Assembly (NCBI GenBank): GCA_017481595.1
Contig: JAFUOY010000022.1
Location: 40,713 to 104,712 of the forward strand
DNA: 64,000 nt
Direction: 5' to 3'
DNA from: Clostridia bacterium
Lineage (GTDB): Bacteria > Bacillota > Clostridia > Oscillospirales > CAG-272
Below, piece by piece: positions 15,204-41,967 of the stretch (position 1 is its first letter; each line of letters starts with the position of its first letter). Made by a program: the position numbers and the translations under genes. The notes under the pieces are model-generated. The model worked only from the letters and a program-made list of their open reading frames with translations. It made no database searches and was not told the DNA's origin.

Positions 15204-15251
15204 TTAAACGAGGACGGAAAACCGTCCTCGCTATTTTTATTAAAAATACTA

Positions 15252-15280
15252 TTGACATATTCGCTTTGATGTGATAGAAT
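15252..15280 (+). promoter_or_regulatory. sigma-A type promoter (left copy of the duplicated cassette)
   Basis: TTGACA (15252-15257), 17-nt spacer, TGa-TAGAAT (15275-15280). The sequence is identical to the minus-strand promoter at 41856-41884. Confidence 0.65.
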
Positions 15281-15345
15281 CTAATTAGATAGATGTGTGA
15301 TAAAAACACTATAAAGGATTTATTTTGAAAAGGAGGATAAAATTT

Positions 15346-17700
15346 ATGAAAAAATTAATGTCAATATTGTTAGTGTTACTTATGCTGACGTCCGTTCTTG
15401 CCTCCTGCGGTGGAAATGATGAAACTACAACAACGGAATTTCCCACAACAGAAGCACCTACAACGGAAGCGCCAACAACCGAAGCTCCCACTACGGAAGC
15501 GCCAACTACGGAAGCTCCTACAACGGAAGTGCCAACAACCGAAGCACCTACAACGGAAGCGCCAACAACCGAAGTACCAACAACGGAAGCTCCCACTACG
15601 GAAGTCCCTACAACACTTCCTCCCGCAGATGACAACGCTCCGAAGGAAATGGTTACAATTACCTTTGATACTAAAGGAGGACCAACGATTCCGAGCCAAA
15701 TAGTAGAAAAAGGCTCCTTAGTAAGAAAACCTGATGGTCCATCAAGATTAGGCTATATTTTTTACGGTTGGTACATAAACGATAAACAATGGTTGGGCAG
15801 ATTTGTTGCTGAGGAAGATACCGTTGTTGAAGCAAAATGGATTCCTGCAGTATATAATATAAAATATGTATTAAACGGCGGCGTAAATAACGGAGAAAAT
15901 AAAACTTCACATACCATAGAGGCTGATGGATTTGTATTGAAGGACCCAGTCAAGGAAGGCGCGAACTTCCTTGGTTGGTATACTGATTACGAATTTAAAA
16001 ATAAGATTACCGAAATTAAAAAAGGTGATATAGGAAATCTGGTATTATATGCAAAATGGGATGATCATAATACAGATACAGGTAATAACGGATCTGGCAG
16101 TACAGGTAATAACGGATTTGACAATACAGGTATAAGTGTTAACGGACTTACACTTGTACTCGATGGAAATGGATATAAAGTAACAAAATGTGCAAAATAT
16201 GTAGATAAAGCGGTAATTCCCGCAACACACGAAGGGTTGCCTGTTACCTCTATAGGTGACGGTGCATTTAGATACTGTGATTATCTTAAAAGCATTACAA
16301 TACCCAATAGCGTTACTTCTATAGGTGTTGACGCGTTTTACAGGTGCTCTTCTCTTACAGATATTACAATACCTGATAGTGTTACTTCTATAGGCGCCTG
16401 CGCGTTTTACGAGTGCACTTCTCTTACAAGCATTAAAATACCCAATGGCGTTACGTCTATAGGTTTTGGTGCGTTTGCCTGTTGCTCATCCCTTACAAGT
16501 ATTACGATACCCAATAGCATTACTTCCATAGATAACAGTGTTTTTTCAGGTTGCGAATCTCTTACAAGTATTACAATACCCGATAGCGTTACATCTATAG
16601 GTTATGAAGCGTTTTATGAGTGCACTTCTCTTACAAGTATAAATGTTGGTGAAAATAACGAGAATTATAAATCCATAGACGGTGTATTGTTCAGCAAAGA
16701 CGGAAAAACCTTAATTGCTTATCCGGCAGGAAAAGGAACGTCATATAGTATACCAAATCACGTTACTTCTATAGGTTATGGCGCATTTTACGGTTGTTCT
16801 TCTCTTGCAAGCGTTACAATACCCGATAGTGTTACTTCTATGGGTGAAAATGCATTTCGCGGTTGTTCTTCTCTTACAAGTGTTACAATCCCCAATAGCG
16901 TTACTTCTATAGAATGGAATGCGTTTCTTAATTGTACTTCCCTTGCGAATGTTACACTGCAAAACGGTGTTTTATCTATAGGTGATGATGCATTTGCAGG
17001 TTGCGAATCTCTTACAAGTATTACAATACCCGATAGCGTTACATCTATAGGTGACTACGCATTCTCCGGTTGCAAATCTCTTAAGAATGTTACTATGCAA
17101 AATAGTGCTCTATCTATAGGCGACTCCGCCTTCAAGGATTGCACGTCTATTGAAAGTCTTACAATTTCCAATAGAGTTACTAAGATACACAAACGCGCGT
17201 TTGAGGGCTGTACTTCCATTACAAATGCTACAGCTCCTGCAATGGCATTAAAATATATTCCAAAAGACAAGTTGAAAACGGTTACCATTTCCGGCGGCGC
17301 TGTTGTAGATGGGCTTGACGGATGCACGTCTCTTAAGAGCATTACGATACCGGATAGTGTTGTTTCCATAAATGAAGATGCATTTGAAGGCTGCACGTCT
17401 CTTAAGAGTATTACAATACCGGATAGCGTTGTTTCTATAGGTTGGAATGCGTTTAAGGGCTGTACTGCTCTTACCGACATTAAAATACCAAGCAGTGCTT
17501 TATCTATAGGCGGCCGCGCCTTTGAGGGATGTACGTCTCTTACAAGCATTACAATTCCCGAAAGCGTTACTGCTATGGGTAAAGACGTATTTATAGGTTG
17601 TTCTTCCCTTACGGTACGTTGTGAAATAGCCAGCAAGCCAACGTTCTGGAGATCCGAATGGAACTCTACAAATATACCTGTAGTTTGGGGTACAAAGTAA
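15346..17700 (+). CDS. surface lipoprotein with PTTEA linker, Listeria-Bacteroides (Flg_new) repeats and BspA-type leucine-rich repeats
   Basis: Start is the ATG after AGGAGG. Lipobox is LASCGG. GYIFYGWY and FLGWYTD repeat motifs are present. There are more than 15 LRR units of the form ITIPDSVTSIGxxAFxxCxSL. Confidence 0.85.
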   Translation: MKKLMSILLVLLMLTSVLASCGGNDETTTTEFPTTEAPTTEAPTTEAPTTEAPTTEAPTTEVPTTEAPTTEAPTTEVPTTEAPTTEVPTTLPPADDNAPKEMVTITFDTKGGPTIPSQIVEKGSLVRKPDGPSRLGYIFYGWYINDKQWLGRFVAEEDTVVEAKWIPAVYNIKYVLNGGVNNGENKTSHTIEADGFVLKDPVKEGANFLGWYTDYEFKNKITEIKKGDIGNLVLYAKWDDHNTDTGNNGSGSTGNNGFDNTGISVNGLTLVLDGNGYKVTKCAKYVDKAVIPATHEGLPVTSIGDGAFRYCDYLKSITIPNSVTSIGVDAFYRCSSLTDITIPDSVTSIGACAFYECTSLTSIKIPNGVTSIGFGAFACCSSLTSITIPNSITSIDNSVFSGCESLTSITIPDSVTSIGYEAFYECTSLTSINVGENNENYKSIDGVLFSKDGKTLIAYPAGKGTSYSIPNHVTSIGYGAFYGCSSLASVTIPDSVTSMGENAFRGCSSLTSVTIPNSVTSIEWNAFLNCTSLANVTLQNGVLSIGDDAFAGCESLTSITIPDSVTSIGDYAFSGCKSLKNVTMQNSALSIGDSAFKDCTSIESLTISNRVTKIHKRAFEGCTSITNATAPAMALKYIPKDKLKTVTISGGAVVDGLDGCTSLKSITIPDSVVSINEDAFEGCTSLKSITIPDSVVSIGWNAFKGCTALTDIKIPSSALSIGGRAFEGCTSLTSITIPESVTAMGKDVFIGCSSLTVRCEIASKPTFWRSEWNSTNIPVVWGTK
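15427..15615 (+). repeat. tandem 15-nt repeat encoding (PTTE[AV])x12 linker
   Basis: Direct reading of the sequence. Units vary at synonymous positions. The minus-strand ORFs across this stretch are shadows. Confidence 0.9.
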
Positions 17701-17710
17701 AATAATAAAA

Positions 17711-17744
17711 AACACTTGCGACTACGTGTCGCAAGTGTTTTTTA
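17711..17744. terminator. bidirectional intrinsic terminator
   Basis: AACACTTGCGAC / GTCGCAAGTGTT 12-bp stem flanked by an A-run and a T-run. Confidence 0.8.
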
Positions 17745-17745
17745 T

Positions 17746-18324
17746 TTATAATAGCTTTTCAAACTCTTCCCTTGAATAAAGTATATTGATAGCAGAGAGC
17801 ATTGCGTTTGACGTCATATCGTTAGGAAGACCAAGCCTTGTTAAAAGGTTGGCTCTTTTTTCCTTACTGTCGGCTCGTCCGCTTAAGCCGTAAGCGTAAA
17901 GATCCGCCTTTGTAATGGGCGTTTTATCTACACTCCCCCCACCGTTTTCCTCACAAAAGGGAGAAAGCAGACTGTACAAAATATCCTTGTCCGTGCCCTC
18001 CACTCCAAGAATACCTTCCTTGGACGCTTCCGTTTTCCTTTTTTCCTTACCCTCAATTTTCGGTGTGTACAGATTTATTATTTTATCGGGGCTTACCGCC
18101 GTCTTGATATACGAGCGGATAAGGTGCCCACCCCCGTCGGAGTCGGTAAGTAGTATGATTTTCCCCTTTTGCGCAAGGGAGCGAATAAGGGAAAGCTTTT
18201 CCTTTTTGTTGAATATTCCAAAGCCGTCCGTGGTTATGACCGTAGCCTCAAAAAGAGAGGTTATTTTTATTTTGTCATACTTACCCTCAACGATAACAGG
18301 GTATTTAATCTTCATAATTTCCAC
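17746..18324 (-). CDS. Toprim domain protein (RNase M5-like)
   Basis: VIVEGKYDK...ILLTDSDGGGHLIR matches the Toprim E...DxD pattern. Confidence 0.55.
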   Translation of the reverse strand: MEIMKIKYPVIVEGKYDKIKITSLFEATVITTDGFGIFNKKEKLSLIRSLAQKGKIILLTDSDGGGHLIRSYIKTAVSPDKIINLYTPKIEGKEKRKTEASKEGILGVEGTDKDILYSLLSPFCEENGGGSVDKTPITKADLYAYGLSGRADSKEKRANLLTRLGLPNDMTSNAMLSAINILYSREEFEKLL

Positions 18325-18348
18325 CTCTTTTAAAAGCCTTTTGTAAAA

Positions 18349-19389
18349 TCAGTTTCCCCTTAAAACTATAAGCATACTGACAAGCCTTTCAACGGGGATA
18401 TATCCCGTAAGGTTGCCAAAGGATTTTGATGCAACGTCAGCCTCCTTGCACAATTCAAGAGAGCGCTCTATTCTTTGGGGTGACATTTTTGATATACGGG
18501 TAAGGTATTTTCCCACCTTGAACTCGTGTATCTTTAAGGACGCGGCTATTTTATCCTTGCTCATACCCGATTTGTAAAGGCGCATTACCGCGTACATTTC
18601 CGTATACATTTTTACAATACTGTAAAGAATAAGGTTAGGTGGCTCGTGATTGAGCTTCTGCCTTTTAAGGGTTTCAAAAACCAAGGATCTCGGTCCCTCA
18701 AGTAGGGAATTGGTAAGCTGGAAATCATCATATTCCGAGGATTTGCAGCACACTGTGTCGATTATTTCCTTATTCTTTATTGCTATTTTGTTCTGTAGAG
18801 CATAGGCGCAAAGCTTTGATATTTCATTCGATAACGCCCACATATCGTGGCCGCATATGTCAACGAGGTAATCGCAAAGCTCGGTGTCAAACTCCACGCC
18901 CCCGTGGGAGAAATGGCGCATTATCCAGGCGCGAAGCCTTGCGCTCTGCGGGAAATTAAATTCCACCGCCTTGATATGCTTCGTAATGAGCTTGTACATT
19001 TCGCTTGGACGCTTCGGCAGCTTGCCACTGTCAAAACACCAGGAATCCGCCCTTATGATAAGCACCGTGTGGTCGTATTCGTCAATGTGGGAAAGCACGT
19101 CGGAAAGCTCTGCCCATTCGTCCTTTTTAAGTGACTTAAAGTCAACGCCTCTTACCTCTACAAGCTTCTTTTCCGCCATCATAGGCAATGTAGCCAACGC
19201 GTTAATAAGAGCAGAGGGAGAAAAGTCCTCTCCATAGAGAATAATATGGTTAAATTCATCAAAGGCGCCGTCAAGGATCTGCTTTCTTACCTCCTTTGAG
19301 TAGGAGTATTTTAAATAATCCTCATCCCCGTGGAAAAGATAGCCACCCGAAAGACTCTTTAATTCCTGCTTGAATTCATTTTCTGTCAT
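18349..19389 (-). CDS. holA: DNA polymerase III subunit delta
   Basis: 346 aa with a YLFHGDEDYLK N-terminus and a delta-subunit-like helical C-terminus. Confidence 0.75.
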   Translation of the reverse strand: MTENEFKQELKSLSGGYLFHGDEDYLKYSYSKEVRKQILDGAFDEFNHIILYGEDFSPSALINALATLPMMAEKKLVEVRGVDFKSLKKDEWAELSDVLSHIDEYDHTVLIIRADSWCFDSGKLPKRPSEMYKLITKHIKAVEFNFPQSARLRAWIMRHFSHGGVEFDTELCDYLVDICGHDMWALSNEISKLCAYALQNKIAIKNKEIIDTVCCKSSEYDDFQLTNSLLEGPRSLVFETLKRQKLNHEPPNLILYSIVKMYTEMYAVMRLYKSGMSKDKIAASLKIHEFKVGKYLTRISKMSPQRIERSLELCKEADVASKSFGNLTGYIPVERLVSMLIVLRGN

Positions 19390-19865
19390 ATCGTATCAAT
19401 TTCCATTTTCAATACGGTCTTTTGCGCGCAGGAGCCGCCAAGCTCGACGAGATAAACGATCTCAATATATTTCATATCGAAAAGGCGGTTATCGATCTGC
19501 TTTGTGTAAATGCAAAGCTCAAAGGGCATTATCTCCGTATTGTAAACGCAGGTGTGGCGAAAGCCCTCCTTGAAGCACATAATAACGCTGATAGCGCCTG
19601 TGCGGGCAAGGGTTATGGACTTTGGCTCGTTTTTGTCAAAGGAAAGCTCCGCTACGGAATTGCCCATACCCGCATTGTCGTTTTCCTCGTATCTTATAAT
19701 TATTTTGTTCCCATCGCGAAGGATCTCGCCCTCGGCGTAAACCGTAAAGCTGTCGATCTCACTGTTTGCCGTCTCGGGCTCGTTCATACCCATTTTAAGC
19801 TCAGCAGACAGATCCTTGGGAATATATTCCTCCTGAGAGGTGGTCATTTTTAATTTACATCTCAT
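19386..19865 (-). CDS. DUF1934 (YwiB-like) beta-barrel protein
   Basis: 159 aa with the pattern IIIRYEE...ITLARTG...Y. It has ATGA overlaps with both neighbouring genes. Confidence 0.5.
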   Translation of the reverse strand: MRCKLKMTTSQEEYIPKDLSAELKMGMNEPETANSEIDSFTVYAEGEILRDGNKIIIRYEENDNAGMGNSVAELSFDKNEPKSITLARTGAISVIMCFKEGFRHTCVYNTEIMPFELCIYTKQIDNRLFDMKYIEIVYLVELGGSCAQKTVLKMEIDTI

Positions 19866-20719
19866 TTTATTATCAACTCCGGCTGTTTTACGCTTACGCG
19901 TGTATTTTCTCCAACGCTTTCCGTTATAAAGGAGTTACCTCCGATAACTGCGCCCTCTCCTATTACGGTGTCACCGCCAAGAATGGAAGCGCCCGAATAG
20001 ATAGTAACGTTATCCCGTACCGTAGGATGTCTTTTAACTCCTGCAAGGGACTGTCCCTTACGGGGAGAAAGAGCGCCAAGGGTAACGCCCTGGTATATCT
20101 TTACTCTGTTTCCGATTATAGTGGTCTCACCGATAACAACGCCCGTACCGTGGTCAATAAAGAAGTATTCGCCAATGGTAGCGCCGGGGTTAATATCAAT
20201 ACCTGTTTTTCCGTGGGCGTACTCTGTCATCATACGGGGAACGAAGGGAACGCCCGATTTGTAAAGGAGATTAGCCACGCGATACACAAAAATGGCGTAA
20301 AAGCCGGGATAGGAGAATATGATCTCCTCCTTGCTCTGCGCCGCAGGGTCACCCTCAAAGGTTGCCTGGGCGTCGGTTAAAAGAATTTTGTGTATTCTTG
20401 GCAAGGCGGACACAAAATCCGAGGCGATAGCAGATGCCTCGGCAGAAACGTCGCGCTTTGTGTGGAAGGAAAGAGCAAGATAGATCTGTCTTCTTATTTT
20501 AAAATAAATGGAATTCATAAGGGGATGTGTAAAAAGCACCGCGTCTCCCTTTGCCTCCTCGGGGGCAAAATACGCGGGGAACATAAGCTTCTTTATATCG
20601 TTAAGCACCTCAATAACCTGGTCTCTTACGGGCAAGCCAAGCTCGGAATTGAACATGGTAATATCGGAGCTCTTATAGGATTCAGCCATTTCTTTAGCTA
20701 CGTTTTCAATGTTTTTCAT
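19862..20719 (-). CDS. cysE: serine O-acetyltransferase
   Basis: The hexapeptide-repeat core GATIGEYFFIDHGTGVVIGETTIIGNRVKIYQGVTLGA is present. I moved the start to MKNIEN. Confidence 0.85.
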   Translation of the reverse strand: MKNIENVAKEMAESYKSSDITMFNSELGLPVRDQVIEVLNDIKKLMFPAYFAPEEAKGDAVLFTHPLMNSIYFKIRRQIYLALSFHTKRDVSAEASAIASDFVSALPRIHKILLTDAQATFEGDPAAQSKEEIIFSYPGFYAIFVYRVANLLYKSGVPFVPRMMTEYAHGKTGIDINPGATIGEYFFIDHGTGVVIGETTIIGNRVKIYQGVTLGALSPRKGQSLAGVKRHPTVRDNVTIYSGASILGGDTVIGEGAVIGGNSFITESVGENTRVSVKQPELIIK

Positions 20720-20899
20720 AGTATACCGTCCTTTGTAAACGTTCTTATATAAAATAATATCATAAGAATATGAAAATATCAAGGAAATTATAACTAAATA
20801 TAAATAAAACTTTTTATATGGACCGAGCCTCGGATTTTGTTGACTTTTATATGGCGCTATGGTACAATAAAATAAACAAACGGAAGGAGGAAAGGAAAA

Positions 20900-21526
20900 A
20901 TGCCCTTTTTAGTATATCTTTCAATTCTTTTTACACTGCTTTGCCTTCTTATTATAGTGGAGTATATTCAGACGATATGGAAAAGATTGTTGCTCATAAT
21001 AAAGCTTAAGCGCGCAGGCAGAAAGTACGGCTTCAAGGTAAAATTTGCAAGATTTCCCTTCCTTTCCGTCTTTTTCCTCAAGGGCAGACTTGACGTGCTC
21101 GTAGAGTCGGAAACGGAAAAATACGCCGTTGTAATACTTACCTCCCGACACAGAAACGGTAAATACCTGTTCTATAGCGACCGTATGGAAATCTGGAAAA
21201 AGAGAAGCATATTTATGCGCGCACCCGTAAACCGAAACGGTAGAGGCGTATACGGAAGAAGTATGCAGTTTAATTTGGGAGTTGTATACAAGGGAAAGAT
21301 AAAGCTCCGCTTCAACGATATTGTCAATAAATATCCGCTACATAAGGGAATTTGTATATTGAATCCCGCCCCCAATACGGTGTGCATCACCTACGGCACC
21401 ACCCATACGGAAATACACGATGGCGACAGACTTCACACAGGCTTTAAGGTACACGGTCTTAGCGCCTTTATCCGCGTTTTGAGTATGGATCACGATATGT
21501 ACGACGTAGGCGGCTACGGTATTTGA
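20900..21526 (+). CDS. hypothetical membrane-anchored protein
   Basis: GGAGGA RBS, an N-terminal TM helix and its own TTGACT-17-TACAAT promoter. I recognise no family. Confidence 0.55.
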   Translation: MPFLVYLSILFTLLCLLIIVEYIQTIWKRLLLIIKLKRAGRKYGFKVKFARFPFLSVFFLKGRLDVLVESETEKYAVVILTSRHRNGKYLFYSDRMEIWKKRSIFMRAPVNRNGRGVYGRSMQFNLGVVYKGKIKLRFNDIVNKYPLHKGICILNPAPNTVCITYGTTHTEIHDGDRLHTGFKVHGLSAFIRVLSMDHDMYDVGGYGI

Positions 21527-21680
21527 TACATACCCGCACAGCGTTGGGTAATTAAAAAAATTTAATATAATATAAAAATTTTTCTTTACATTTGACGATT
21601 TTTTTGCTATACTATGTATGTTAATAAATTGTTTTGCCTGATTTGACCTTTCAGACAATATAAAAGGAGTGTATAAACTT

Positions 21681-22874
21681 ATGAGTCGTATGGTCGGCAC
21701 AATATCAAGAGGCATTCGTGCCCCTATCATTCGTAAAGGTGACGATATAGTAGATATCGTTACAAATTCCATACTTGAAGCTTCTGAGGATGCAGGATTT
21801 GAGATCCACGACCGTGATATCGTCGCTATGACAGAGGCTATCGTTGCAAGAGCACAGGGTAACTATGCTTCCGTAAACGATATTGCCGAGGATGTCCGCG
21901 CGAAGTTTAACGGCGGCACAGTCGGTGTTATATTCCCCATCTTGAGCCGTAACCGCTTTGCTATTTGTCTTCGCGGTATTGCTATGGGTGTTAAAAAGGT
22001 AGTTCTTATGCTTTCTTACCCCTCTGACGAGGTTGGTAACCATCTTATCAGTCTTGATATGCTTGACGAAAAGGGTATTACCCCTTATACTGACGTTCTC
22101 AGCCTTGAAAAGTACCGTGAGCTTTTTGGTTATGAAAAGCATCCCTTTACAGGCGTTGACTACGTAGAGTATTATGAGGGACTTATCCGTGAATGCGGAG
22201 CAGACGTTGAGATCATCTTTGCTAACGATCCCCGCGCTGTTCTTAAGTATACAAAGAACGTTCTTAACTGTGATATCCACTCTCGCTTCCGTACAAAGAG
22301 ACTTCTTCGTAATGCAGGAGCTGAGATCGTTTACGGTCTTGATGAGGTGCTTAGCGCTTCTGTAAACGGTAGCGGCTATAATGCTGATTACGGTCTTCTT
22401 GGCTCTAACAAGGCTACTGAGGATCAGGTTAAGCTCTTCCCCCGCGACTGTCAGCCCATCGTAGACGCTATTCAGAAGAAGCTTTACGATAAGACAGGCA
22501 AGACTGTTGAGGTTATGGTTTACGGTGACGGCGCGTTCAAGGATCCAGTAGGTAAGATCTGGGAGCTTGCTGACCCCATCGTTTCCCCCGCTTACACATC
22601 AGGACTTGAGGGCACACCTAACGAGCTTAAGCTTAAGTATCTTGCAGATAACGATTTTGCAGATCTTTCCGGTGATGCGCTTAAGGAGGCAATCAAGGAA
22701 AAGATAGTTTCCAAGGATAACGACCTTGTAGGTAATATGGCGTCCGAGGGTACAACACCCCGTCGTCTTACAGACCTTATCGGTTCACTCTGTGACCTTA
22801 CATCAGGCTCAGGCGATAAGGGTACACCTATCGTATTTATCCAGGGCTACTTTGATAATTACACAACGGAATAA
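21681..22874 (+). CDS. F420-0:gamma-glutamyl ligase (CofE)-like family protein
   Basis: YGLLGSNKAT...LFPRD...VMVYGDGAFKDP resembles the CofE core. The start is ATG 21681, 9 nt after AAGGAG. Confidence 0.55.
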   Translation: MSRMVGTISRGIRAPIIRKGDDIVDIVTNSILEASEDAGFEIHDRDIVAMTEAIVARAQGNYASVNDIAEDVRAKFNGGTVGVIFPILSRNRFAICLRGIAMGVKKVVLMLSYPSDEVGNHLISLDMLDEKGITPYTDVLSLEKYRELFGYEKHPFTGVDYVEYYEGLIRECGADVEIIFANDPRAVLKYTKNVLNCDIHSRFRTKRLLRNAGAEIVYGLDEVLSASVNGSGYNADYGLLGSNKATEDQVKLFPRDCQPIVDAIQKKLYDKTGKTVEVMVYGDGAFKDPVGKIWELADPIVSPAYTSGLEGTPNELKLKYLADNDFADLSGDALKEAIKEKIVSKDNDLVGNMASEGTTPRRLTDLIGSLCDLTSGSGDKGTPIVFIQGYFDNYTTE

Positions 22875-23023
22875 TATAATAAAATTGAAGGAGACCTTGC
22901 TTTGCAGGGTCTCTTTTTTGCGCAAAAGTAAAGCAATCAAGGAAATATGAATGTTATTTGTACGAGTTGCACAAAAATATTTGTTTTTTCGCAATTTTTA
23001 TGTTCAAAATCTTCAAAAAGCAC

Positions 23024-23052
23024 TTGCAAAGTCTTTTTATATATAGTATAAT
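23024..23052 (+). promoter_or_regulatory. sigma-A type promoter
   Basis: TTGCAA, 17-nt spacer, TATAAT. Confidence 0.55.
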
Positions 23053-23121
23053 CAAAGCAGGTGCTGCATTTTCAGGGTGCAGTATACAAGAAATATAGTT
23101 ATACAAGGAGATCTTTTTATT

Positions 23122-26159: not shown

Positions 26160-26232
26160 AGATGTTTGTCGGCATTAAAAACTCATAAAAAAAGACAGAG
26201 AATGTTTTTACACTCTCCGTCCTTTTTTATAT

Positions 26233-33671: not shown

Positions 33672-33700
33672 TTGACACACAATGCTTAAATTGCTATAAT
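33672..33700 (+). promoter_or_regulatory. sigma-A type promoter of hisS-aspS
   Basis: TTGACA, 17-nt spacer, TATAAT (consensus). Confidence 0.65.
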
Positions 33701-33770
33701 ATATGCTATAAAAGTATTGTAACAATATATTATGCGCATATATGCGCGTAATATCACAAAAGAGGTTGAA

Positions 33771-35036: not shown

Positions 35037-35037
35037 T

Positions 35038-36828
35038 ATGGAAAAATTTGAAAAGAATGACAAGCGTACCCATTATTGCGGTACTTTAACCAAAAATGAC
35101 CTTGGTAAGCGCGTTTGCGTTCTCGGTTGGGCGCAGAAGCAGAGAGACTTAGGCTCTCTTATCTTCATTGACCTTCGTGACAGAAGCGGTATCGTTCAGC
35201 TTGCCTTTGACGATAGCACGGACAGAGAGATCTTTGACAAGGCTTTCGGCGTAAGAGCAGAGTTCGTTCTTTGTGCTAAGGGTATCGTAAGAGCAAGAGG
35301 AGAGGGTGCAGTTAACAAAAACATCCCCACAGGTGAAATTGAAATTGCGGTTGACGAGTTCAAGGTGCTTACAAAGGCGCAGACTCCTCCCTTTGAGATC
35401 GTTGAAAACAGCGACGTAAAGGCAGACCTTCGCTTGAAGCACAGATATCTTGACCTTCGCCGTCCCGATATGCAGAGAAACATTATCGCCCGCTCCAAGA
35501 TCACAAATCTTACGAGAAATTACTTTAACGAAAACGGATTTATCGACATAGAAACACCTAACCTTATCCGTCCCACACCCGAGGGAGCTCGTGACTATCT
35601 CGTTCCCAGCCGTGTTCACAACGGTAAGTTCTATGCACTTCCTCAGTCACCTCAGATCTATAAGCAGCTTCTTATGTACTCAGGCTTTGACCGTTACATT
35701 CAGATCGCGCGTTGCTTCCGTGACGAGGACCTTCGCGCTGACCGTCAGCCCGAGTTTACACAGATAGATATGGAGATCTCCTTTACTGACGAGGACGAGA
35801 TCATTTCCATCAACGAGGGCTTTATCAAGTACATCTTCGATAACTTTATGGGTAAGGAGATCACCACACCCTTTGAAAGAATCACATGGCATGAGGCTAT
35901 GGAGCGCTTTGGCTCCGATAAGCCCGATATGAGATTCGGCTTTGAGCTTAAGAATATTTCCGAGGCTGTTAAGAACACGGAATTCAAGGTATTTGCAGGC
36001 GCCATCGCAAACGGCGGCAGCGTAAGAGCTATCAACGTTAAGGGCGGCGCTAAGTTCTCAAGAAAAGAGATCGACTCTCTTACTGAGGTTGCAAAGCAGT
36101 ATAAGGCAAAGGGCCTTGCTTGGCTCAAAAAGGCTAACGGAGAGATTTCCTCCTCCTATGCTAAGTTCCTTACAGAGGCTGAAAATGCTGAAATTCTCAG
36201 AATTATGGAGGTAGAGGACGGGGACCTCGTTCTCGTTGTTGCCGATAAAAATAAGGTCGTATTCGATACTCTCGGCGCTCTCCGTTGCGAATGTGCAAAG
36301 CGTCTCGGACTTCTTAACCCCAATGAATTCAAGTTCCTTTGGGTAACTGAATTCCCCCTCTTTGAGTACAGTGAGGAGGATGGCAGATACTACGCTATGC
36401 ACCATCCCTTTACCGCTCCTATGGATGAGGACTATGAATTTATCGACACAGATCCCGGCAGAGTGCGCGCAAGAGCATATGATATCGTTCTTAACGGTAC
36501 TGAGCTTGGCGGCGGCTCCATTCGTATCCACACCACCGAAATGCAGGAGCATATGTTCTCCATCCTCGGCATCGGCAAGGAAGAAGCGCAGGAGAAATTC
36601 GGCTTCCTTCTTGACGCCTTCAAGTACGGCGTACCTCCTCACGGCGGTCTTGCCTTCGGTCTTGACAGACTTGTGACACTCCTTTTGGGACTTGAGGATA
36701 TTCGTGAGGTTATTGCATTCCCCAAGATGCAAAACGCATCCGAGCTTATGTCCAAGTGCCCCTCATTTGCTAACCCCGACGATTTGAAGGAGCTTGGCAT
36801 TGCGGTTATTGCAACTGAAGAAGAATAA
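35038..36828 (+). CDS. aspS: aspartate--tRNA ligase
   Basis: The start is MEKFEK. Blocks seen: FIDLRDRSG, QSPQIYKQLLM, FRDEDLRADRQPEFTQID, GGGSIRIH. Confidence 0.92.
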   Translation: MEKFEKNDKRTHYCGTLTKNDLGKRVCVLGWAQKQRDLGSLIFIDLRDRSGIVQLAFDDSTDREIFDKAFGVRAEFVLCAKGIVRARGEGAVNKNIPTGEIEIAVDEFKVLTKAQTPPFEIVENSDVKADLRLKHRYLDLRRPDMQRNIIARSKITNLTRNYFNENGFIDIETPNLIRPTPEGARDYLVPSRVHNGKFYALPQSPQIYKQLLMYSGFDRYIQIARCFRDEDLRADRQPEFTQIDMEISFTDEDEIISINEGFIKYIFDNFMGKEITTPFERITWHEAMERFGSDKPDMRFGFELKNISEAVKNTEFKVFAGAIANGGSVRAINVKGGAKFSRKEIDSLTEVAKQYKAKGLAWLKKANGEISSSYAKFLTEAENAEILRIMEVEDGDLVLVVADKNKVVFDTLGALRCECAKRLGLLNPNEFKFLWVTEFPLFEYSEEDGRYYAMHHPFTAPMDEDYEFIDTDPGRVRARAYDIVLNGTELGGGSIRIHTTEMQEHMFSILGIGKEEAQEKFGFLLDAFKYGVPPHGGLAFGLDRLVTLLLGLEDIREVIAFPKMQNASELMSKCPSFANPDDLKELGIAVIATEEE

Positions 36829-36868
36829 AAATAAAATTTAATATAAACAATTTGAAAGGAAAACACAA

Positions 36869-38575
36869 ATGTTTAATCAGTTCTTCAAAAGCAAGAAGAA
36901 TATTGTGATGACATCCGTGCTTGCAGTATTGCTTATTGCTCTTGTAGTATGCAGCTTTGTTGTAAGAGCAGAGGAGGGCAACTGCCCTGACTGCGGCGGC
37001 ACAGGACTCCTTTGTGAGACCTGTGGCGGAGACGGAACAATGGACAGCCGTTACTTCGGTACCTTTATGTCCCTTGCGGCTCCCATCATTGCTATCGTTC
37101 TTGCACTCATCACAAAAGAGGTTTATTCCTCACTCTTCATCGGTATCGTTATAGGTGCGCTTCTTAACGCAAACTATAACCTTTCTGCAACTCTTGATAT
37201 AGCGGTAAACGACGGTCTTATCTCTGCGGTTTCGGGCACGGCAGGTATCTTTATCTTCCTCGTTGTCCTTGGCGCAATGGTAGTTCTCGTTAACAAGGCA
37301 GGCGGCTCAAAGGCGTTTGGTAAATGGGCGCATAAGAACATCAAATCAAAGGTAGGCGCCGCTATCGCTACCTTTATTCTCGGCGTTCTTATCTTCATTG
37401 ACGACTACTTTAACTGTCTTACGGTTGGCTCAGTTATGCGTCCCGTTACAGACAGCCATAAGATCTCAAGAGGCAAGCTTGCGTTTATTATCGACGCAAC
37501 GGCTGCTCCCGTATGTATGATCGCTCCTATCTCCTCCTGGGCTGCGGCAGTTTCCGCATACGCTCCCGAGGGTACAAGCGGACTTAAGATGTTCGTAACG
37601 GCTATCCCCTTTAACTTCTACTCCATCCTTACTCTTATCTTTGTTGTACTTATCGCAGTAATGGGCTTTGACTACGGCAAGATGGCAGGCGTTGAATTCA
37701 AGGCGCAGAATGGTGACCTTGGCGCTATCGAAGCTGATGCAGAGCAGGATACTGCATCCGACAGAGGCAGAGTAATCGACCTTATTCTTCCTATCGTTGT
37801 TCTTATCGTTGCTTGTGTTGTTGCCCTTATTTATAACGGCGGCTTCTTTGACGCATCCAGCGAATACCACCTTGACTTTATCGGCTCCTTCGGTAACACA
37901 GACGCAACCGTTGGCTTGCCTTGGGGCTCACTTATCGCTCTTATCTTTACAATAGCGTATCTTATGTGCCGTAAGGCTATCACGTTTAAGGAAGCTATGG
38001 ATTCCATTCCCAAGGGCTTTATCGCAATGGTACCCGCAATCCTTATCCTTACCTTTGCAACCTCCCTTAAGAATATGACAGGTCTCCTTGGCTCCGACGT
38101 ATTCGTTGATAACCTTCTCAGCGGTGCTGAAGGACTTACATTCTTCCTTCCCGCTATTATCTTCGTAGTAGCTTGCGTAATAGCATTCTCCACAGGAACA
38201 TCATGGGGTACCTTCGGTATTCTTATTCCTATCGTTCTTGCCGTATTCCCCGCAGGCACAGTCCTCGGTACTATCGGTATGTCCGCTTGCCTTGCAGGCG
38301 CAGTATGCGGTGACCATTGCTCACCCATCTCCGATACTACCATTATGGCATCTGCAGGAGCGCAGTGCAACCACGTTGAGCACGTACAGACGCAGCTTCC
38401 TTACGCTATTACAGTAGCGGCTGTATCCTTCGTTTCCTTCATTATTGCAGGCGTGCTTGCATCCGTTGCTGATTGGGCTGCATACCTTGCAATTCCCGTA
38501 TCCATCGTTCTTCTCGTTGGTACGGTTATCGTAATCAGGACGGTTACAAAAAAGAAGGCTGCAAAGAACATTTAA
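36869..38575 (+). CDS. NhaC-family Na+/H+ antiporter-like transporter with N-terminal DnaJ-type zinc-finger insert
   Basis: About 12 TM helices with NhaC-like blocks. Residues 39-56 read CPDCGGTGLLCETCGGDG. Confidence 0.7.
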   Translation: MFNQFFKSKKNIVMTSVLAVLLIALVVCSFVVRAEEGNCPDCGGTGLLCETCGGDGTMDSRYFGTFMSLAAPIIAIVLALITKEVYSSLFIGIVIGALLNANYNLSATLDIAVNDGLISAVSGTAGIFIFLVVLGAMVVLVNKAGGSKAFGKWAHKNIKSKVGAAIATFILGVLIFIDDYFNCLTVGSVMRPVTDSHKISRGKLAFIIDATAAPVCMIAPISSWAAAVSAYAPEGTSGLKMFVTAIPFNFYSILTLIFVVLIAVMGFDYGKMAGVEFKAQNGDLGAIEADAEQDTASDRGRVIDLILPIVVLIVACVVALIYNGGFFDASSEYHLDFIGSFGNTDATVGLPWGSLIALIFTIAYLMCRKAITFKEAMDSIPKGFIAMVPAILILTFATSLKNMTGLLGSDVFVDNLLSGAEGLTFFLPAIIFVVACVIAFSTGTSWGTFGILIPIVLAVFPAGTVLGTIGMSACLAGAVCGDHCSPISDTTIMASAGAQCNHVEHVQTQLPYAITVAAVSFVSFIIAGVLASVADWAAYLAIPVSIVLLVGTVIVIRTVTKKKAAKNI

Positions 38576-38583
38576 GTTAAGAA

Positions 38584-38619
38584 AAGAGTGCGATTTTACG
38601 TCGCACTCTTTACTTTTTT
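38584..38619 (+). terminator. intrinsic terminator
   Basis: AAGAGTGCGA / TCGCACTCTT 10-bp stem followed by a T-run. Confidence 0.75.
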
Positions 38620-38669
38620 GTTATAATATGCTACAATATAATAAATAAAAACAAAATGAGGTACTTAAT

Positions 38670-39113
38670 ATGAAATGTCCCCATTGCGGCCACGAGGAAA
38701 GTAAGGTAACGGACTCCCGTCCTGTTGATGAAAACTCCAGCATCAAAAGAAGAAGAGAATGTCTTAACTGCCAGGCGAGATTTACAACCTATGAAACTAT
38801 TGAAACCATTCAGACAATAGTTATAAAAAAGGATGGCTCAAGAGAATATTTTAATAAAAGTAAGCTTTTGTCAGGCCTTATGAAGGCGTGTCAGAAGCGC
38901 CCCGTTGATTCCGCTAAAATAGCGGATAAAATTGAAGCCGAGCTTCAGAACTCCCTTAAAACCGAGATCACCTCCTACGAAATAGGTGAAATGGTTATGA
39001 AGGAGCTTCGTGATAAGGATGCGGTGGCATACGTTCGCTTTGCATCCGTATACCGTGAATTTAAGGACGTGGAGACCTTTATGCAGGAGCTTCAGCACTT
39101 TCTTAAAAAGTAA
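38670..39113 (+). CDS. nrdR: transcriptional repressor NrdR
   Basis: [18 protein letters not shown]...[16 protein letters not shown] zinc ribbon, followed by an ATP-cone. Confidence 0.92.
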
Positions 39114-39134
39114 CGGATAAATACTTGTATATAG

Positions 39135-39342
39135 ATATACGTGGGGGAAAGTAACGGTGTAAGTCCGTCGCAACAGCCATTGCCGTCACAGTCGGAATGC
39201 CACGCGTATATTTTTGGCAAAAGGCCGAATGGTAAAACCACCCTTGGGCAATATCCGTAAGGAGAGAAGGGAGGAGCCAAAGAAAAGGAGACGCTTTAAA
39301 ATGCTCGCCGTAGGTTAATAAAAAACAGGCGCAGATTTTTTT
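39135..39342 (+). promoter_or_regulatory. probable cobalamin riboswitch (class-II / AdoCbl-variant-like aptamer 39135-39211) with downstream platform and weak terminator (39302-39342)
   Basis: P1 pairs ATATACGTGG with CCAC(GC)GTATAT. The core is GGGAAAGUAACGGUGUAAGUCCGU plus a B12-box-like GUCGGAAUGCCAC. The downstream gene family (DUF4430) is commonly B12-regulated. Not verified with a covariance model. Confidence 0.6.
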
Positions 39343-39397
39343 GTGTCTTGCTCTCTTTGTTTTATCATATATAGATAAAAGAAAAGAGGAAGAAAAA

Positions 39398-39811
39398 ATG
39401 AAAAGACTTCTATCACTCACCCTTGCGCTGCTGATGATATGCAGTATGTGCATCTTCACCGTTTCCTGCGGTGAAACCAACGAAAAAATGCTTTATACCG
39501 AGGATACTACCCTTGGTACGGGAGCAAAAACCATTACCTTTAACGTAGAGCATAAGGATGGAACGAAAATCAAGTTCACCATCAAAACGGACAAATCCCT
39601 GCTTTCCGACGCTCTTTTGGAGCATAGCCTTATAGAAGGGGAAAACGGTGACTTTGGCATTTACGTAAAAAAGGTAAACGGTATAACCCAGGATTATGAT
39701 ATTGATAAATCCTATTGGGCATTGTACATAGACGGTGAGTACGCTCTTACAGGAGCATATTCCACCGAAATAACCGACGGCGGAGAATATACCTTCAAGG
39801 TATCTTACTGA
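39398..39811 (+). CDS. DUF4430 (transcobalamin-like) lipoprotein
   Basis: The start is MKRLLSLTLALLMICSMCIFTVSCG (lipobox), after GAGGAAG. DUF4430-like blocks include WALYIDGEYA. Confidence 0.7.
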   Translation: MKRLLSLTLALLMICSMCIFTVSCGETNEKMLYTEDTTLGTGAKTITFNVEHKDGTKIKFTIKTDKSLLSDALLEHSLIEGENGDFGIYVKKVNGITQDYDIDKSYWALYIDGEYALTGAYSTEITDGGEYTFKVSY

Positions 39812-39892
39812 TAAAAAAGAGGACGGAGTAAAGGGCTGTACTCTTAAGGACAGTTTTAAGTTCAATAGAATATAGTACCTACCGACAGGAAA

Positions 39893-39930
39893 AGGACAGA
39901 GAATGTTTTTACATTCTCTGTCCTCTTTTC
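39893..39930. terminator. bidirectional intrinsic terminator
   Basis: Perfect 14-bp stem AGGACAGAGAATGT-TTTT-ACATTCTCTGTCCT with A- and T-rich flanks. A near copy lies at 26196-26232. Confidence 0.8.
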
Positions 39931-39941
39931 TTGACAAGAAC

Positions 39942-40171
39942 TGCATTTGTAGACACAAATGCATATAGTGAAATATTTTGCTTTGCAAAATGTGAAATAA
40001 TGTTCTGTCGAACATTGTGAAATATCTCGCTCTGCTCGATGTGAAATGAAATAAATCCCCTCACGCCCGCAGGCATTTCACTCGCTGAAAGCGAATTTCA
40101 CACACGAAGTGCATTTCACAAATCCCGTAAGGGATTTATTTCGTTGCGTAGTGTCCTTAAGGGCACTACGC
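39942..40171. repeat. word-hairpin array A (GTGAAAT x4 / ATTTCAC x3-4 with interleaved unique mini-hairpins)
   Basis: Direct reading of the sequence; see findings for coordinates. Confidence 0.8.
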
Positions 40172-40201
40172 TAAAATCCGTCCTCTTTCTATTTGTAAGT
40201 T

Positions 40202-41791
40202 TTATTCCTCAGTGTAACTGCCCCAAGCCTTGTTCCACTCCGCTATTGTTTCAAGAGCTGCGGGAGACCTTTTTTCGTAGTACTCATCAAAGTTGTTTTT
40301 GTAGTTAGCGTATGTACCGAAAAGAGAGAAAAGGCTACCCCAGCCTACCGCTTCACCCGGATCATATGAAATATTCGGTATGATATAATCGGTTAACATT
40401 TCAATATCCTTATCGGAGGAAAAGCCCGTTTTCAAGATTTTGATATATTCCTTCATAACGTATTCTTCACCCGTCCAGAAAAGTACGTCCATAAAGTAAT
40501 CTGACATGTTTCTGTCCTGTGTTATTTTTGGAATACACATAGCGACGGACATCTGTGTTGAGCAAGGAACACGGTATCTGCCTTGCTCCTCATTAAGCAT
40601 AGGAAACGGAACTATTCCTTTATCCTCCAACTGATCAGAATAACTTAAGGTGTCACTTAAAAACAAGATCTTGTCTTTTTTAAATCCGTCTGCATCGTTG
40701 GGACCCCAACTTCCGTATCCACTATAATCCTTGTACCAATTTGCTTTGCTTGTATAGATTATAGCGTCAATAATACCGTCAACGTTTTCATCATTTGTTA
40801 TAAGCTCCCATTCACCTGTAGCCTTATTCACTCCCCCTCGGGTAACGTCAAAAAAGTTGAAAAACCGATCTGATGAATAATTGCGAAGTCCATGCACGTA
40901 TCTGAATCTATCTTCGCTATCGCCGTTGTCGGAATATACAGCCTCACAGTAGCCAACTAACTTGTCATAGGTCCATTTGCCTTCCTTTACTAATTTATAA
41001 AGGTCCTCAATGCCGTTTTCACTTACTTCACCCATAAGATTTTTATTAACGTAAAGCAAGTATGCCGTATGCTTTTCTAAATTGGAAAAGCTACCTGTTA
41101 CAAAGAAGGTGTGACCGTATGCTGTGTAGGCTTCTACAGAATTATCATTGTAATATGAATTTCTGAAATCTATAAATTCTCTGTCTGCAAGGTCGTATAC
41201 GTATCCGCCCGCAACGATTGCTTGCACGTTCATCATACGGGGAGCGGCAAGGTCGTAGTAGATGTTTTTCGCAAGGGTTGCTTCTTCAAGCGCTTTGGGC
41301 ATACCCGCCTTGGTAGCGTTTATCCAATTAACCTTAACACCGTACGTGTTTTCAATAAACTCGTTACGGTCGAGAACTGCCTGCTGGATCTGAACGCCGA
41401 ATTTGGCATCGTTTTCCTCAGTGATAAAAACCTCAGGCATTGCCCATGGCGCACCCGTAGCATACCACGTGGAGCAGGCAACGTTAAGCGTCTTACCGTT
41501 CCAAGTATCTCTTACGTCATTTTTGGATGACCAAATAACTTTGGGGCCTTTTGTAGAAGGAGCTTCAGTTGTAGGAACTTCAGTTGTAGGAGCTTCTGTT
41601 GTTGGAGCCTCGGTAGTAGGCGCTTCTGTTGTAGGGGTCTCGGTTGTTGGCGCTTCAGTTGTAGGAATCTCCGTAGTAGGAGTCTTAGTTGTTGGCGCTT
41701 CCGTAGTTGTGGACTCATCATTTCCACCGCAGGAGGCAAGTACGGACGTCAGCATAAGTAACACTAACAATATTGACATTAATTTTTTCAT
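40202..41791 (-). CDS. solute-binding-protein-like lipoprotein with PTTEA linker (orphan, no adjacent permease)
   Basis: The signal peptide and lipobox match the 15346 gene. The mature part resembles large family-1 ABC sugar-binding lipoproteins, but the family call is tentative. Confidence 0.5.
   Translation of the reverse strand: MKKLMSILLVLLMLTSVLASCGGNDESTTTEAPTTKTPTTEIPTTEAPTTETPTTEAPTTEAPTTEAPTTEVPTTEAPSTKGPKVIWSSKNDVRDTWNGKTLNVACSTWYATGAPWAMPEVFITEENDAKFGVQIQQAVLDRNEFIENTYGVKVNWINATKAGMPKALEEATLAKNIYYDLAAPRMMNVQAIVAGGYVYDLADREFIDFRNSYYNDNSVEAYTAYGHTFFVTGSFSNLEKHTAYLLYVNKNLMGEVSENGIEDLYKLVKEGKWTYDKLVGYCEAVYSDNGDSEDRFRYVHGLRNYSSDRFFNFFDVTRGGVNKATGEWELITNDENVDGIIDAIIYTSKANWYKDYSGYGSWGPNDADGFKKDKILFLSDTLSYSDQLEDKGIVPFPMLNEEQGRYRVPCSTQMSVAMCIPKITQDRNMSDYFMDVLFWTGEEYVMKEYIKILKTGFSSDKDIEMLTDYIIPNISYDPGEAVGWGSLFSLFGTYANYKNNFDEYYEKRSPAALETIAEWNKAWGSYTEE
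41561..41710 (-). repeat. tandem 15-nt repeat encoding (PTT[EK][ATIV])x10 linker
   Basis: Direct reading of the sequence. The plus-strand ORF 41403-41816 is a shadow. Confidence 0.9.
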
Positions 41792-41855
41792 AATTTGTCC
41801 TCCTTTTTCAAAATAAAACTATTATAATGTCTTTATAATACATCTATCTAATTAG

Positions 41856-41884
41856 ATTCTATCACATCAAAGCGAATATGTCAA
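41856..41884 (-). promoter_or_regulatory. sigma-A type promoter (right copy of the duplicated cassette)
   Basis: Minus strand reads TTGACA (41884-41879), 17-nt spacer, TAGAAT (41861-41856). It is identical to 15252-15280. Confidence 0.65.
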
Positions 41885-41967
41885 TAGATTTTTTCTAAAA
41901 TATAAAAACAGACTGTCGCTTAAGACAGTCTGTTTTGGTCTGTGCTAATTGCAACGACCTCTTTTAT

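What the first reader, a model, noticed from the sequence alone, without database searches (positions are those of the whole stretch)
15249..41887. Two unrelated lipoprotein genes carry a near-identical promoter/leader/signal-peptide/PTTEA-linker cassette as inverted repeats 26 kb apart
The left arm is 15249-15615 (plus strand) and the right arm is 41561-41887 (minus strand). Over the promoter and first transcribed bases, 48 of 48 nt are identical (CTATTGACATATTCGCTTTGATGTGATAGAATCTAATTAGATAGATGT). About 50 nt of only partly similar 5' UTR follow. From the ATG through the lipobox (MKKLMSILLVLLMLTSVLASCGGND), 76 of 78 nt are identical. Then come 10-12 copies of a 15-nt PTTE[AVIT] unit. The mature domains are unrelated: BspA-type LRR versus solute-binding-like. 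The patchy identity (promoter and signal peptide perfect, UTR diverged) argues for gene conversion or selection on a modular 5' cassette, not a simple recent duplication.
Basis: seen in the sequence. Interest (0 to 1): 0.6.

Follow-up and report, generated by a model that had tools for sequence, protein, structure and literature searches.

The report
Shared, recombining 5' module of surface lipoproteins
Two different surface lipoprotein genes of an uncultured ruminant-gut Clostridia bacterium start with the same promoter, signal peptide and PTTEA stalk because this 5' module heads a whole gene family and its pieces are swapped between family members by recombination; this is a real but familiar kind of surface-protein evolution.

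Summary
The promoter block is 48/48 identical, the signal-peptide block 76/78, the leader only 35/49, followed by about 12 and 10 PTTEx units. The mature domains differ: Flg_new plus BspA-type LRR on the left, and a MalE-like solute-binding fold (orphan, no permeases) on the right.

The pair is not a one-off. The same module heads a multigene lipoprotein family in uncultured ruminant-gut Clostridia. It sits on SBP-like, LRR, SBP-LRR fusion and unknown domains. Two other lipoproteins in the window lack it.

Comparison with same-species strains (flanks 97-100% identical) shows mosaicism. In the promoter the two window copies match each other but differ from the right gene's orthologue at 6 sites. 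In the leader the left copy matches that orthologue (47/49) and the right copy does not. Across loci, promoter, leader and signal-peptide types reassort. Shared signal-peptide alleles are identical even at synonymous sites, while mature domains are only 56-71% codon-identical.

Best explanation: short-tract recombination or gene conversion among paralogous 5' modules. No recombinase or inversion was found; the 26-kb inverted arrangement looks incidental. This is a new member of a known kind, of moderate interest.

The parts
15209..15230 (+). Intrinsic terminator of the upstream DUF4186 gene. It isolates the left lipoprotein gene as its own transcription unit, and it differs from the terminator at this site in strain L014.
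15249..15296 (+). Left promoter block: -35 TTGACA at 15252-15257, 17-nt spacer, TG-extended -10 TAGAAT at 15275-15280, then the 12-bp palindrome ATCTAATTAGAT at the predicted start site.
   Evidence: 11/12 consensus match; 48/48 identical to the right copy
15297..15345 (+). Left leader (49 nt) with Shine-Dalgarno AAGGAGG at 15330-15336. It is 47/49 identical to the leader of the RIGHT gene's orthologue in strain L004.
15346..15423 (+). Left signal-peptide block (MKKLMSILLVLLMLTSVLASCGGNDE). Lipobox is LASC, with the lipidated Cys21 at 15406-15408.
15428..15614 (+). Left (PTTEx)n linker: 11.8 copies of a 15-nt unit.
15346..17700 (+). Left gene, 784 aa: SP + linker + 2 Flg_new + BspA-type LRR. 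The whole unit from about 15185 to about 17870 is a strain-variable island between flanks that are 97-100% identical.
41905..41936 (-). Intrinsic terminator after truB, upstream of the right promoter.
41840..41887 (-). Right promoter block: -35 at 41884-41879, -10 TAGAAT at 41861-41856, TG-extended.
41792..41839 (-). Right leader (48 nt) with SD AAGGAGG at 41805-41799. This is the diverged patch: 35/49 to the left copy and 37/49 to its own orthologue.
41714..41791 (-). Right signal-peptide block, 76/78 identical to the left. Cys21 is at 41731-41729.
41558..41701 (-). Right (PTTEx)n linker: 9.6 copies of the 15-nt unit.
40202..41791 (-). Right gene, 529 aa: SP + linker + MalE-like solute-binding fold. 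It is an orphan with no adjacent permease genes.

Best explanation
The two arms are copies of a lineage-specific 5' expression-and-export module. It consists of a near-consensus sigma-A-type promoter with an extended -10, a leader of about 49 nt with a strong ribosome-binding site, a 21-residue lipoprotein signal peptide, and a (PTTEx)n stalk. The module heads a multigene family of surface lipoproteins in an uncultured ruminant-gut Clostridia species. Its sub-blocks (promoter, leader, signal peptide) are exchanged between family members by short-tract homologous recombination or gene conversion. In this genome the promoter and signal-peptide blocks of the two genes share very recent ancestry, while the leader of the right copy comes from another lineage. 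That produces the patchy identity. Each gene is an independent single-gene transcription unit. The inverted orientation and 26-kb spacing are incidental. Shown here: the identities, the mosaic, the module reassortment, the synonymous-site excess, strain-level hypervariability, and the motifs and folds. Inferred: actual transcription and lipidation, the linker acting as a wall-spanning stalk, RecA-type recombination as the mechanism, and diversifying selection on surface proteins as the driver.
For: Both arms have TTGACA-17-TAGAAT with TG (11/12), each preceded by a terminator. Both have a lipobox. The module recurs: the identical SP sits on SBP-like proteins only 61-88% identical overall, on SBP-LRR fusions, on Flg_new/LRR proteins and on an unknown domain. 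Same-species strains are available: flanks are 97-100% identical to L014 and 98-99% to L004. Three-way site patterns show the promoter as WL=WR but different from L004 at 6/6 sites, and the leader as WL=L004 but different from WR at 13 sites, with max-chi-square permutation p=4e-4. The six promoter differences fall outside the -35 and -10 hexamers (one just upstream of -35, four in the spacer, one downstream of -10), and the orthologue keeps an intact promoter, so selection alone does not explain the 48/48 match. Modules reassort. L004-L019 have promoter 29/48 but SP 78/78. WR-L020 have promoter 43/48 but SP 58/78. L007b-L009b have promoter 47/48 and leader 33/33 but SP 63/78. Codon identity among conserved residues is 22-23/23 in shared SP alleles versus 56-71% in the mature domains (p=6e-6 to 7e-3). 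Pairs with different SP alleles show no excess. Further pairs behave the same way: two adjacent genes with different bodies on one contig (L012) share about 240 nt of 5' sequence, and L007b/L009b, at different loci recovered from the same sample, share about 170 nt upstream.
Against: No exchange event was observed directly, and donors and direction cannot be resolved from three or four sequences. The left island also replaces the upstream terminator, so whole-allele replacement between strains contributes alongside intragenomic conversion. Assignment of dispersed paralogues to one genome rests on MAG binning or a shared sample, except for pairs on the same contig. The left allele's junction was not found in an independent assembly. 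Functional constraint on the promoter and SP probably adds to their conservation.
Confidence: 0.75

Rival explanations
1. An old duplication of a 5' region followed by purifying selection on the functional promoter and signal peptide, with the leader free to drift and no exchange between copies.
For: The conserved blocks are the functional ones (-35/-10 elements, SP, lipobox). A 12-bp palindrome at the start site could be an operator.
Against: The right gene's orthologue in a strain with 98-99% identical flanks differs at 6/48 promoter sites, all outside the -35 and -10 hexamers, yet keeps a good promoter. The left leader matches that orthologue 47/49. Synonymous sites are conserved only where an SP allele is shared, not in general. 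Module types are incongruent across loci.
Confidence: 0.1
2. A programmed DNA-inversion or phase-variation switch that uses the two arms as inverted repeats, as in mycoplasma vsp/vpma/vsa loci.
For: The arms are inverted repeats with up to 52 nt of exact identity at the 5' ends of surface lipoprotein genes. Conserved 5' UTR and SP are the hallmark of Vpma/Vsp families (PMC2268961).
Against: Both copies have their own promoter, so inversion would change nothing in expression. No tyrosine or serine recombinase is present anywhere in the window. The 26 kb between the arms is core housekeeping genes. L014 and L004 are collinear with the window across the respective junctions.
Confidence: 0.05
3. 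Metagenome-assembly artefact: a chimeric join or collapse at a repeated cassette created the apparent shared 5' end of the left gene.
For: The window is a MEGAHIT-type metagenome contig. Related contigs often end inside the cassette (L018; L006). The left allele was not found in a second assembly.
Against: Exact shared blocks are at most 52 nt, far below k=141. The right locus is independently assembled in L004/L005 and L001. The same architecture (cassette + linker + PPADDNAPKEMVTITFDTKGGP body) is present at the same site in L014-L017. The phenomenon recurs on other contigs.
Confidence: 0.04
4. A simple recent duplication of the 5' region, with random point-mutation divergence since then.
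For: Overall similarity is about 80% over roughly 330 nt.
Against: There are 14 differences in 49 nt of leader against 2 in 126 nt of promoter plus SP, which is incompatible with a uniform rate (Fisher p=3e-7). The site pattern is mosaic relative to the orthologue.
Confidence: 0.03

Closest known systems
Mycoplasma variable surface lipoprotein families (M. agalactiae Vpma, M. bovis Vsp; also Vsa, Vlp)
   Same: A multigene family of surface lipoproteins whose 5' untranslated region and signal-peptide coding region are highly conserved while the mature parts differ and contain repeats (PMC2268961). The conserved 5' ends are the substrate for recombination.
   Different: Vpma/Vsp genes sit in one locus with a single promoter and an adjacent Xer1/Mbr tyrosine recombinase that inverts DNA at sites in the 5' UTR. 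Here every gene has its own promoter, the genes are dispersed among housekeeping genes, and no recombinase or inversion was detected. The host is a Clostridia commensal, and the mature domains are large folded domains (SBP-like, LRR).
Concerted evolution and mosaic alleles by gene conversion in bacterial surface-protein families (e.g. Neisseria opa, Treponema tpr; pneumococcal PspA/PspC sharing a leader and proline-rich region). These examples are recalled from general knowledge and were not tested here.
   Same: Paralogues within a genome share segments more similar than orthologues do, there are sharp mosaic breakpoints, and the loci are hypervariable between strains.
   Different: Here the exchanged segments include the promoter itself, and they reassort as separate promoter, leader and SP modules across genes with unrelated mature folds.
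MalE-type (SBP_bac_1/SBP_bac_8) oligosaccharide-binding proteins of ABC importers, e.g. GacH 3k01, GL-BP 2z8d, T. maritima MalE, E. rectale EUR_01830 4ua8
   Same: The right mature domain has this fold (Foldseek probability 1.0, TM 0.45-0.65). It is lipid-anchored through an N-terminal Cys like Gram-positive SBPs. A few homologues carry a precomputed PF13416 assignment.
   Different: Identity is 10-15%, and the window protein is below Pfam thresholds. No permease or ATPase genes are adjacent in any of the loci seen. The family has many copies per genome, and some members are fused to LRR domains.
BspA-type LRR / Listeria-Bacteroides repeat surface proteins (PF13306, PF09479)
   Same: The left mature part matches LRR_5 (E=2e-154) and Flg_new (E=1.5e-22).
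   Different: It is anchored as a lipoprotein on a PTTEx stalk rather than by LPXTG, GW or a C-terminal domain. Its 5' module is shared with SBP-like proteins.

Membership tests
Bacterial lipoprotein (Lgt/LspA pathway) | N-terminal basic n-region, hydrophobic h-region and lipobox [LVI][ASTVI][GAS]C | tested here: met
   MKK-LMSILLVLLMLTSV-LASC in both proteins. Actual lipidation was not tested.
Vpma/Vsp-type phase-variable lipoprotein locus | Conserved 5' UTR and signal peptide across a family of lipoprotein genes | tested here: met
   definition taken from PMC2268961
Vpma/Vsp-type phase-variable lipoprotein locus | Single promoter per locus, with the other genes silent | tested here: not met
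   Both window genes and the homologues examined carry their own TTGACA-N17-TAnAnT promoter.
Vpma/Vsp-type phase-variable lipoprotein locus | Adjacent site-specific (tyrosine) recombinase | tested here: not met
   No Phage_integrase, Resolvase or Recombinase hit in any window ORF scanned or in the precomputed annotation of L001 and L014.
Vpma/Vsp-type phase-variable lipoprotein locus | DNA inversion between the 5' regions | tested here: inconclusive
   Two other strains are collinear with the window. Within-population inversion needs read-level data, which these tools do not provide.
Concerted evolution by gene conversion | Paralogues in one genome more alike than orthologues between strains in the converted tract | tested here: met
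   Promoter is 48/48 within the genome versus 42/48 to the orthologue, while the flanks are 98-99% identical.
Concerted evolution by gene conversion | Mosaic breakpoints and phylogenetic incongruence between adjacent segments | tested here: met
   A/B site pattern AAAAAA|BBBB... with p=4e-4; module table.
Concerted evolution by gene conversion | Excess identity at synonymous sites confined to the tract | tested here: met
   22-23/23 identical codons in shared SP alleles versus 56-71% in the mature region; no excess for other allele pairs.
ABC-transporter solute-binding protein (SBP_bac_1/8, MalE-like) | Two-lobed periplasmic-binding-protein fold | tested here: met
   AlphaFold model with pLDDT 93.5; top 50 PDB matches are almost all carbohydrate-type ABC binding proteins.
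ABC-transporter solute-binding protein (SBP_bac_1/8, MalE-like) | Sequence membership (Pfam gathering threshold) | tested here: not met
   No Pfam family for the window protein. The family profile gives only E=0.042 against a PDB SBP, and only over the N-terminal region.
ABC-transporter solute-binding protein (SBP_bac_1/8, MalE-like) | Encoded next to cognate permease and ATPase genes | tested here: not met
   Neighbours are truB, DUF4430 and nrdR in the window. None of L002, L004, L007, L009 or L012 has adjacent sugar-type permeases.
BspA-type LRR protein (PF13306) | LRR_5 repeats above the gathering score | tested here: met
   506 bits against a cut-off of 27.7.

The most novel reading that the evidence does not exclude
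The conserved promoter, leader and SP blocks (possibly together with conserved 3' terminators) act as recombination handles. They would let whole mature-domain payloads and expression strengths be swapped between loci and between strains without a dedicated recombinase. This would be a standing, recombinase-free shuffling system that generates strain-specific surface-lipoprotein repertoires (glycan binding, adhesion, phage or immune evasion) in gut Clostridia. The palindrome at the start site could additionally define a co-regulated set of these genes.
Probability: 0.2. Interest if true: 0.6.

Novelty: new member of a known kind. Interest (0 to 1): 0.35.

Why it matters
It shows that an uncultured ruminant-gut Clostridia lineage builds much of its surface-lipoprotein repertoire on one standard promoter/leader/signal-peptide/stalk module. 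Recombination within this module, together with whole-allele replacement, makes these loci the most variable parts of otherwise 98-99% identical strains.

Practical consequences:
- Such cassettes appear to fragment metagenome assemblies, since contigs often end inside the cassette.
- They mark loci useful for strain typing.
- The module is a ready-made strong expression and surface-display cassette for engineering related Firmicutes.
- The multi-copy orphan MalE-like lipoproteins and their LRR fusions are candidate surface glycan-capture or adhesion proteins worth characterising.

Tried and rejected
- Exact 29-nt promoter core in the GTDB representative genomes: 0 hits.
- Degenerate C-G-G-N-D-E-T-T-T-T-E junction in the same collection: 1 hit, on a 2-kb sheep-colon MAG contig. 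No whole-genome census was therefore possible.
- JGI metagenome scan for the window-type SP DNA: 1 hit.
- Word-indexed protein search with the 48-aa N-terminus: uninformative, with only 2 candidates, and it missed the window's own protein.
- Search with the left protein's first 330 aa: swamped by generic LRR proteins, so no independent copy of the left allele was found.
- Exact-product look-ups of the left protein with the ATG and the TTG start, and of P0023: not on record.
- P0004 was tested as a possible second orthologue of the right locus. It is not syntenic, though it proved informative as a window-type promoter joined to a different SP allele.
- Rfam scan of the interval containing both arms (15000-42100): no known RNA family matches either leader.
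- GC skew gave no origin or terminus signal that would make the inverted geometry meaningful.
- MITE or mobile-promoter idea: rejected, because the homology runs into the coding region and has no terminal repeats.
- DGR idea: rejected, because no reverse transcriptase is present in the window.
- The L018 signal-peptide values in the table are off by one base and should be ignored.


Full report
OBSERVATION. Both arms were read directly and aligned.
- The 48-nt block CTATTGACATATTCGCTTTGATGTGATAGAATCTAATTAGATAGATGT occurs exactly twice in the window, at 15249-15296 (+) and 41840-41887 (-). There are no mismatches, and none are expected by chance.
- The first 50 nt of both coding regions are identical.
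- Per block, the identities are promoter 48/48, leader 35/49 and signal peptide (SP) 76/78. This unevenness is significant (Fisher p=3e-7).
- Tandem Repeats Finder gives 11.8 and 9.6 copies of the 15-nt PTTEx unit.
- The left ATG is at 15346.
- The longest exact shared block is 52 nt.

ANATOMY. Each arm has a TTGACA-17-TAGAAT promoter with a TG extension (11/12 consensus match). Each promoter lies directly after an intrinsic terminator of the upstream gene: DUF4186 on the left, truB on the right. A leader of about 49 nt ends in AAGGAGG. It is followed by MKKLMSILLVLLMLTSVLASCGGND, with lipobox LASC, and then the PTTEx array.

The left mature part has two Flg_new repeats plus BspA-type LRR_5 (E=2e-154). 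The right protein has no Pfam hit. A 65-sequence alignment gave an AlphaFold model with pLDDT 93.5. Its top PDB matches are almost all MalE-type oligosaccharide ABC binding proteins, such as GacH, GL-BP, MalE and EUR_01830, at probability 1.0 and 10-15% identity. So "solute-binding-like" holds at fold level. However, the gene is an orphan sitting between truB and a DUF4430 lipoprotein gene.

The 26 kb between the arms encodes ordinary core functions: holA, EF-G, MurC, SpoVG, HisRS, AspRS, NrdR and others. No site-specific recombinase is present anywhere in the window.

ORIGIN. The window is near-identical to ENA metagenome contig ERZ28018778 k141_1215617, with 10 SNPs in 21.6 kb. Relatives are "Clostridia bacterium" MAGs from ruminant gut. 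GTDB representative genomes lack the promoter core. Only one, a sheep-colon MAG, has the CGGNDETTTTE junction.

THE MODULE IS FAMILY-WIDE. The right protein has more than 200 homologues. The SP is letter-perfect in proteins that are only 61-88% identical overall (P0003, P0005, P0008, P0009, P0014, P0018, P0023). Other recurrent SP alleles exist as well.

The same N-terminal module also sits on other protein types:
- Flg_new/LRR proteins (P0119, P0120, P0144, P0167).
- A domain with no Pfam family (P0122, P0141, P0113, P0116, P0117).
- SBP-like plus LRR fusions (P0009, P0023), whose LRR part is 35-39% identical to the left protein.

An exhaustive phmmer search with the first 60 residues shows that "lipoprotein SP plus P/T/E/A spacer" is a common Firmicutes design. 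The specific cassette is confined to this lineage. Two other predicted lipoproteins in the window have unrelated SPs and no linker. The module is therefore frequent but not universal.

STRAIN COMPARISONS.
- L014/L015 carry the syntenic left locus. The flanks are 97-100% identical. From about 15185 to about 17870, identity falls to 25-77%. This stretch includes a different upstream terminator, a different promoter and leader type, and a different SP allele.
- L004/L005 carry the syntenic right locus. The flanks are 98-99% identical, the promoter and leader 78-88%, and the gene body 90-97%.
Both lipoprotein genes are therefore hypervariable islands within a single species.

MOSAIC. I compared the left copy (WL), the right copy (WR) and the right gene's orthologue (L004) site by site.
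- The upstream flank is entirely WR=L004, as expected for orthologous loci.
- In the promoter block, all 6 informative sites are WL=WR and differ from L004.
- In the leader, 13 sites are WL=L004 and differ from WR.
- The break lies at the predicted transcription start.
- A maximum chi-square permutation test gives p=4e-4.
The six promoter differences lie outside the -35 and -10 hexamers: one just upstream of -35, four in the spacer and one downstream of -10. The orthologue keeps an intact promoter. Selection alone therefore cannot explain the 48/48 identity.

MODULE REASSORTMENT.

| Pair | Promoter | Leader | SP |
|---|---|---|---|
| WL-WR | 48/48 | 39 of 50 aligned columns | 76/78 |
| L004-L019 | 29/48 | - | 78/78 |
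| L004-L002 | 30/48 | - | 77/78 |
| WR-L020 | 43/48 | 30 of 51 aligned columns | 58/78 |
| L007b-L009b (different loci) | 47/48 | 33/33 | 63/78 |

The leader counts here are from pairwise alignments and so differ from the 35/49 for WL-WR given above, which came from the three-way alignment.

L007b and L009b were found with identical sequence in the window's own sample (L008 and L010). On contig L012, two adjacent genes with different bodies share about 240 nt of 5' sequence. That shared stretch includes the 3' end of the preceding SBP-like gene, so it is a tandem-duplication unit.

SYNONYMOUS-SITE CONTROL. For paralogues that share the window-type SP allele, 22-23 of 23 conserved residues use identical codons in the SP. 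In their mature domains the figure is 56-71% (p=6e-6 to 7e-3). Pairs with different SP alleles have SP codon identity no higher than in the mature domain. The SP is therefore not generally constrained at the nucleotide level. The shared blocks reflect recent common ancestry of that segment.

INTERPRETATION. The best-supported explanation is short-tract homologous exchange (gene conversion) among paralogous 5' modules, plus whole-allele replacement between strains. At least two events are needed to relate WL, WR and L004. The direction of exchange and the donors are unresolved. The linker acting as a wall-spanning stalk, and diversifying selection as the driver, are inferences.

ALTERNATIVES. 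A programmed inversion switch is unlikely: both genes have promoters, no recombinase is present, and the other strains are collinear. An assembly artefact is unlikely because the shared blocks are at most 52 nt against k=141, the right locus is independently assembled, and the phenomenon recurs on other contigs. It is not fully excluded for the left allele, which was not found in a second assembly.

COMPARISON WITH KNOWN SYSTEMS. The closest parallel is the mycoplasma Vpma/Vsp type of variable lipoprotein family, which has a conserved 5' UTR and SP (PMC2268961). Its defining single promoter, adjacent Xer1-type recombinase and 5'-UTR inversions are not met here. The system works like concerted evolution of surface-protein gene families. 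It is a new instance of that kind in gut Clostridia, with the added feature that the promoter, leader and SP reassort as separate modules across unrelated mature folds.

VERDICT. The finding is real and correctly interpreted, but it is one instance of a family-wide and conceptually familiar process. Interest is moderate.

Noticed in passing
window 40070-40146 (-); also L004 11649-11725 and L012 12601-12670: A full-length Gut-1 RNA motif (Rfam RF01706, 74 bits) lies about 55 nt downstream of the right gene's stop. It sits before a bidirectional terminator at 39893-39924, with no terminator in between, so it may be part of that mRNA's 3' UTR. The motif is conserved in the orthologous locus. In L012 it lies near a tRNA rather than next to an SBP-like gene, so the association is not general.
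   Followed up: partly
P0009 (L019 1765-4374), P0011, P0018, P0023, P0032: Some family members fuse the complete MalE-like domain to a C-terminal BspA-type LRR domain (853-897 aa). This links the two 'unrelated' mature domains of the window in a single polypeptide. SBP-like and LRR lipoprotein genes are also adjacent in L009.
   Followed up: partly
window 15278-15289 and 41847-41858: A perfect 12-bp palindrome, ATCTAATTAGAT, overlaps the end of the -10 element and the predicted start site. It is present in all four window-type promoters (WL, WR, L004, L020) and absent from the other promoter types. It could be an operator. However, the window contains 27 perfect 12-bp palindromes, so it is not significant on its own.
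   Followed up: partly
L018 (contig ends at 5357, inside the linker); L006 (match at 1912-1944 of a 2032-nt contig); many homologue contigs of 1.5-5 kb: Metagenome contigs often end within or just after the cassette. This suggests the repeated module fragments assemblies of this lineage and hides the true copy number.
   Followed up: no
L012 1-4177: A tandem array of two SBP-like genes followed by an unrelated 343-aa gene (P0122). The duplicated unit runs from the last codons of one gene (…AEWNA[AT]WGGYTEE*) through the intergenic region into the SP and linker of the next gene.
   Followed up: partly
window 26189-26228 vs 39890-39929; 59933-59964 vs 63649-63680: Terminator-like hairpins recur at 90-94% identity at distant sites (repeat families D4 and I9). 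These are shared terminator modules of unknown significance.
   Followed up: no
window 39413-40015 (-) vs 39398-39811 (+): The 200-aa minus-strand ORF has no family hit and overlaps a plus-strand DUF4430 lipoprotein gene that is the one called in the public record. The minus-strand ORF is probably spurious.
   Followed up: partly
window about 51500-55150: Identity to strain L004 falls to 41% beyond about 51512. The window then has four consecutive ORFs without any Pfam family, followed by a Peptidase_S24-like protein. This may be another strain-variable or mobile region.
   Followed up: no
L009 13695-21536 / L010: A prophage-like region (integrase, S24 repressor, DNA methylase, many small ORFs) is integrated next to a tRNA, just downstream of a lipoprotein gene cluster.
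   Followed up: no
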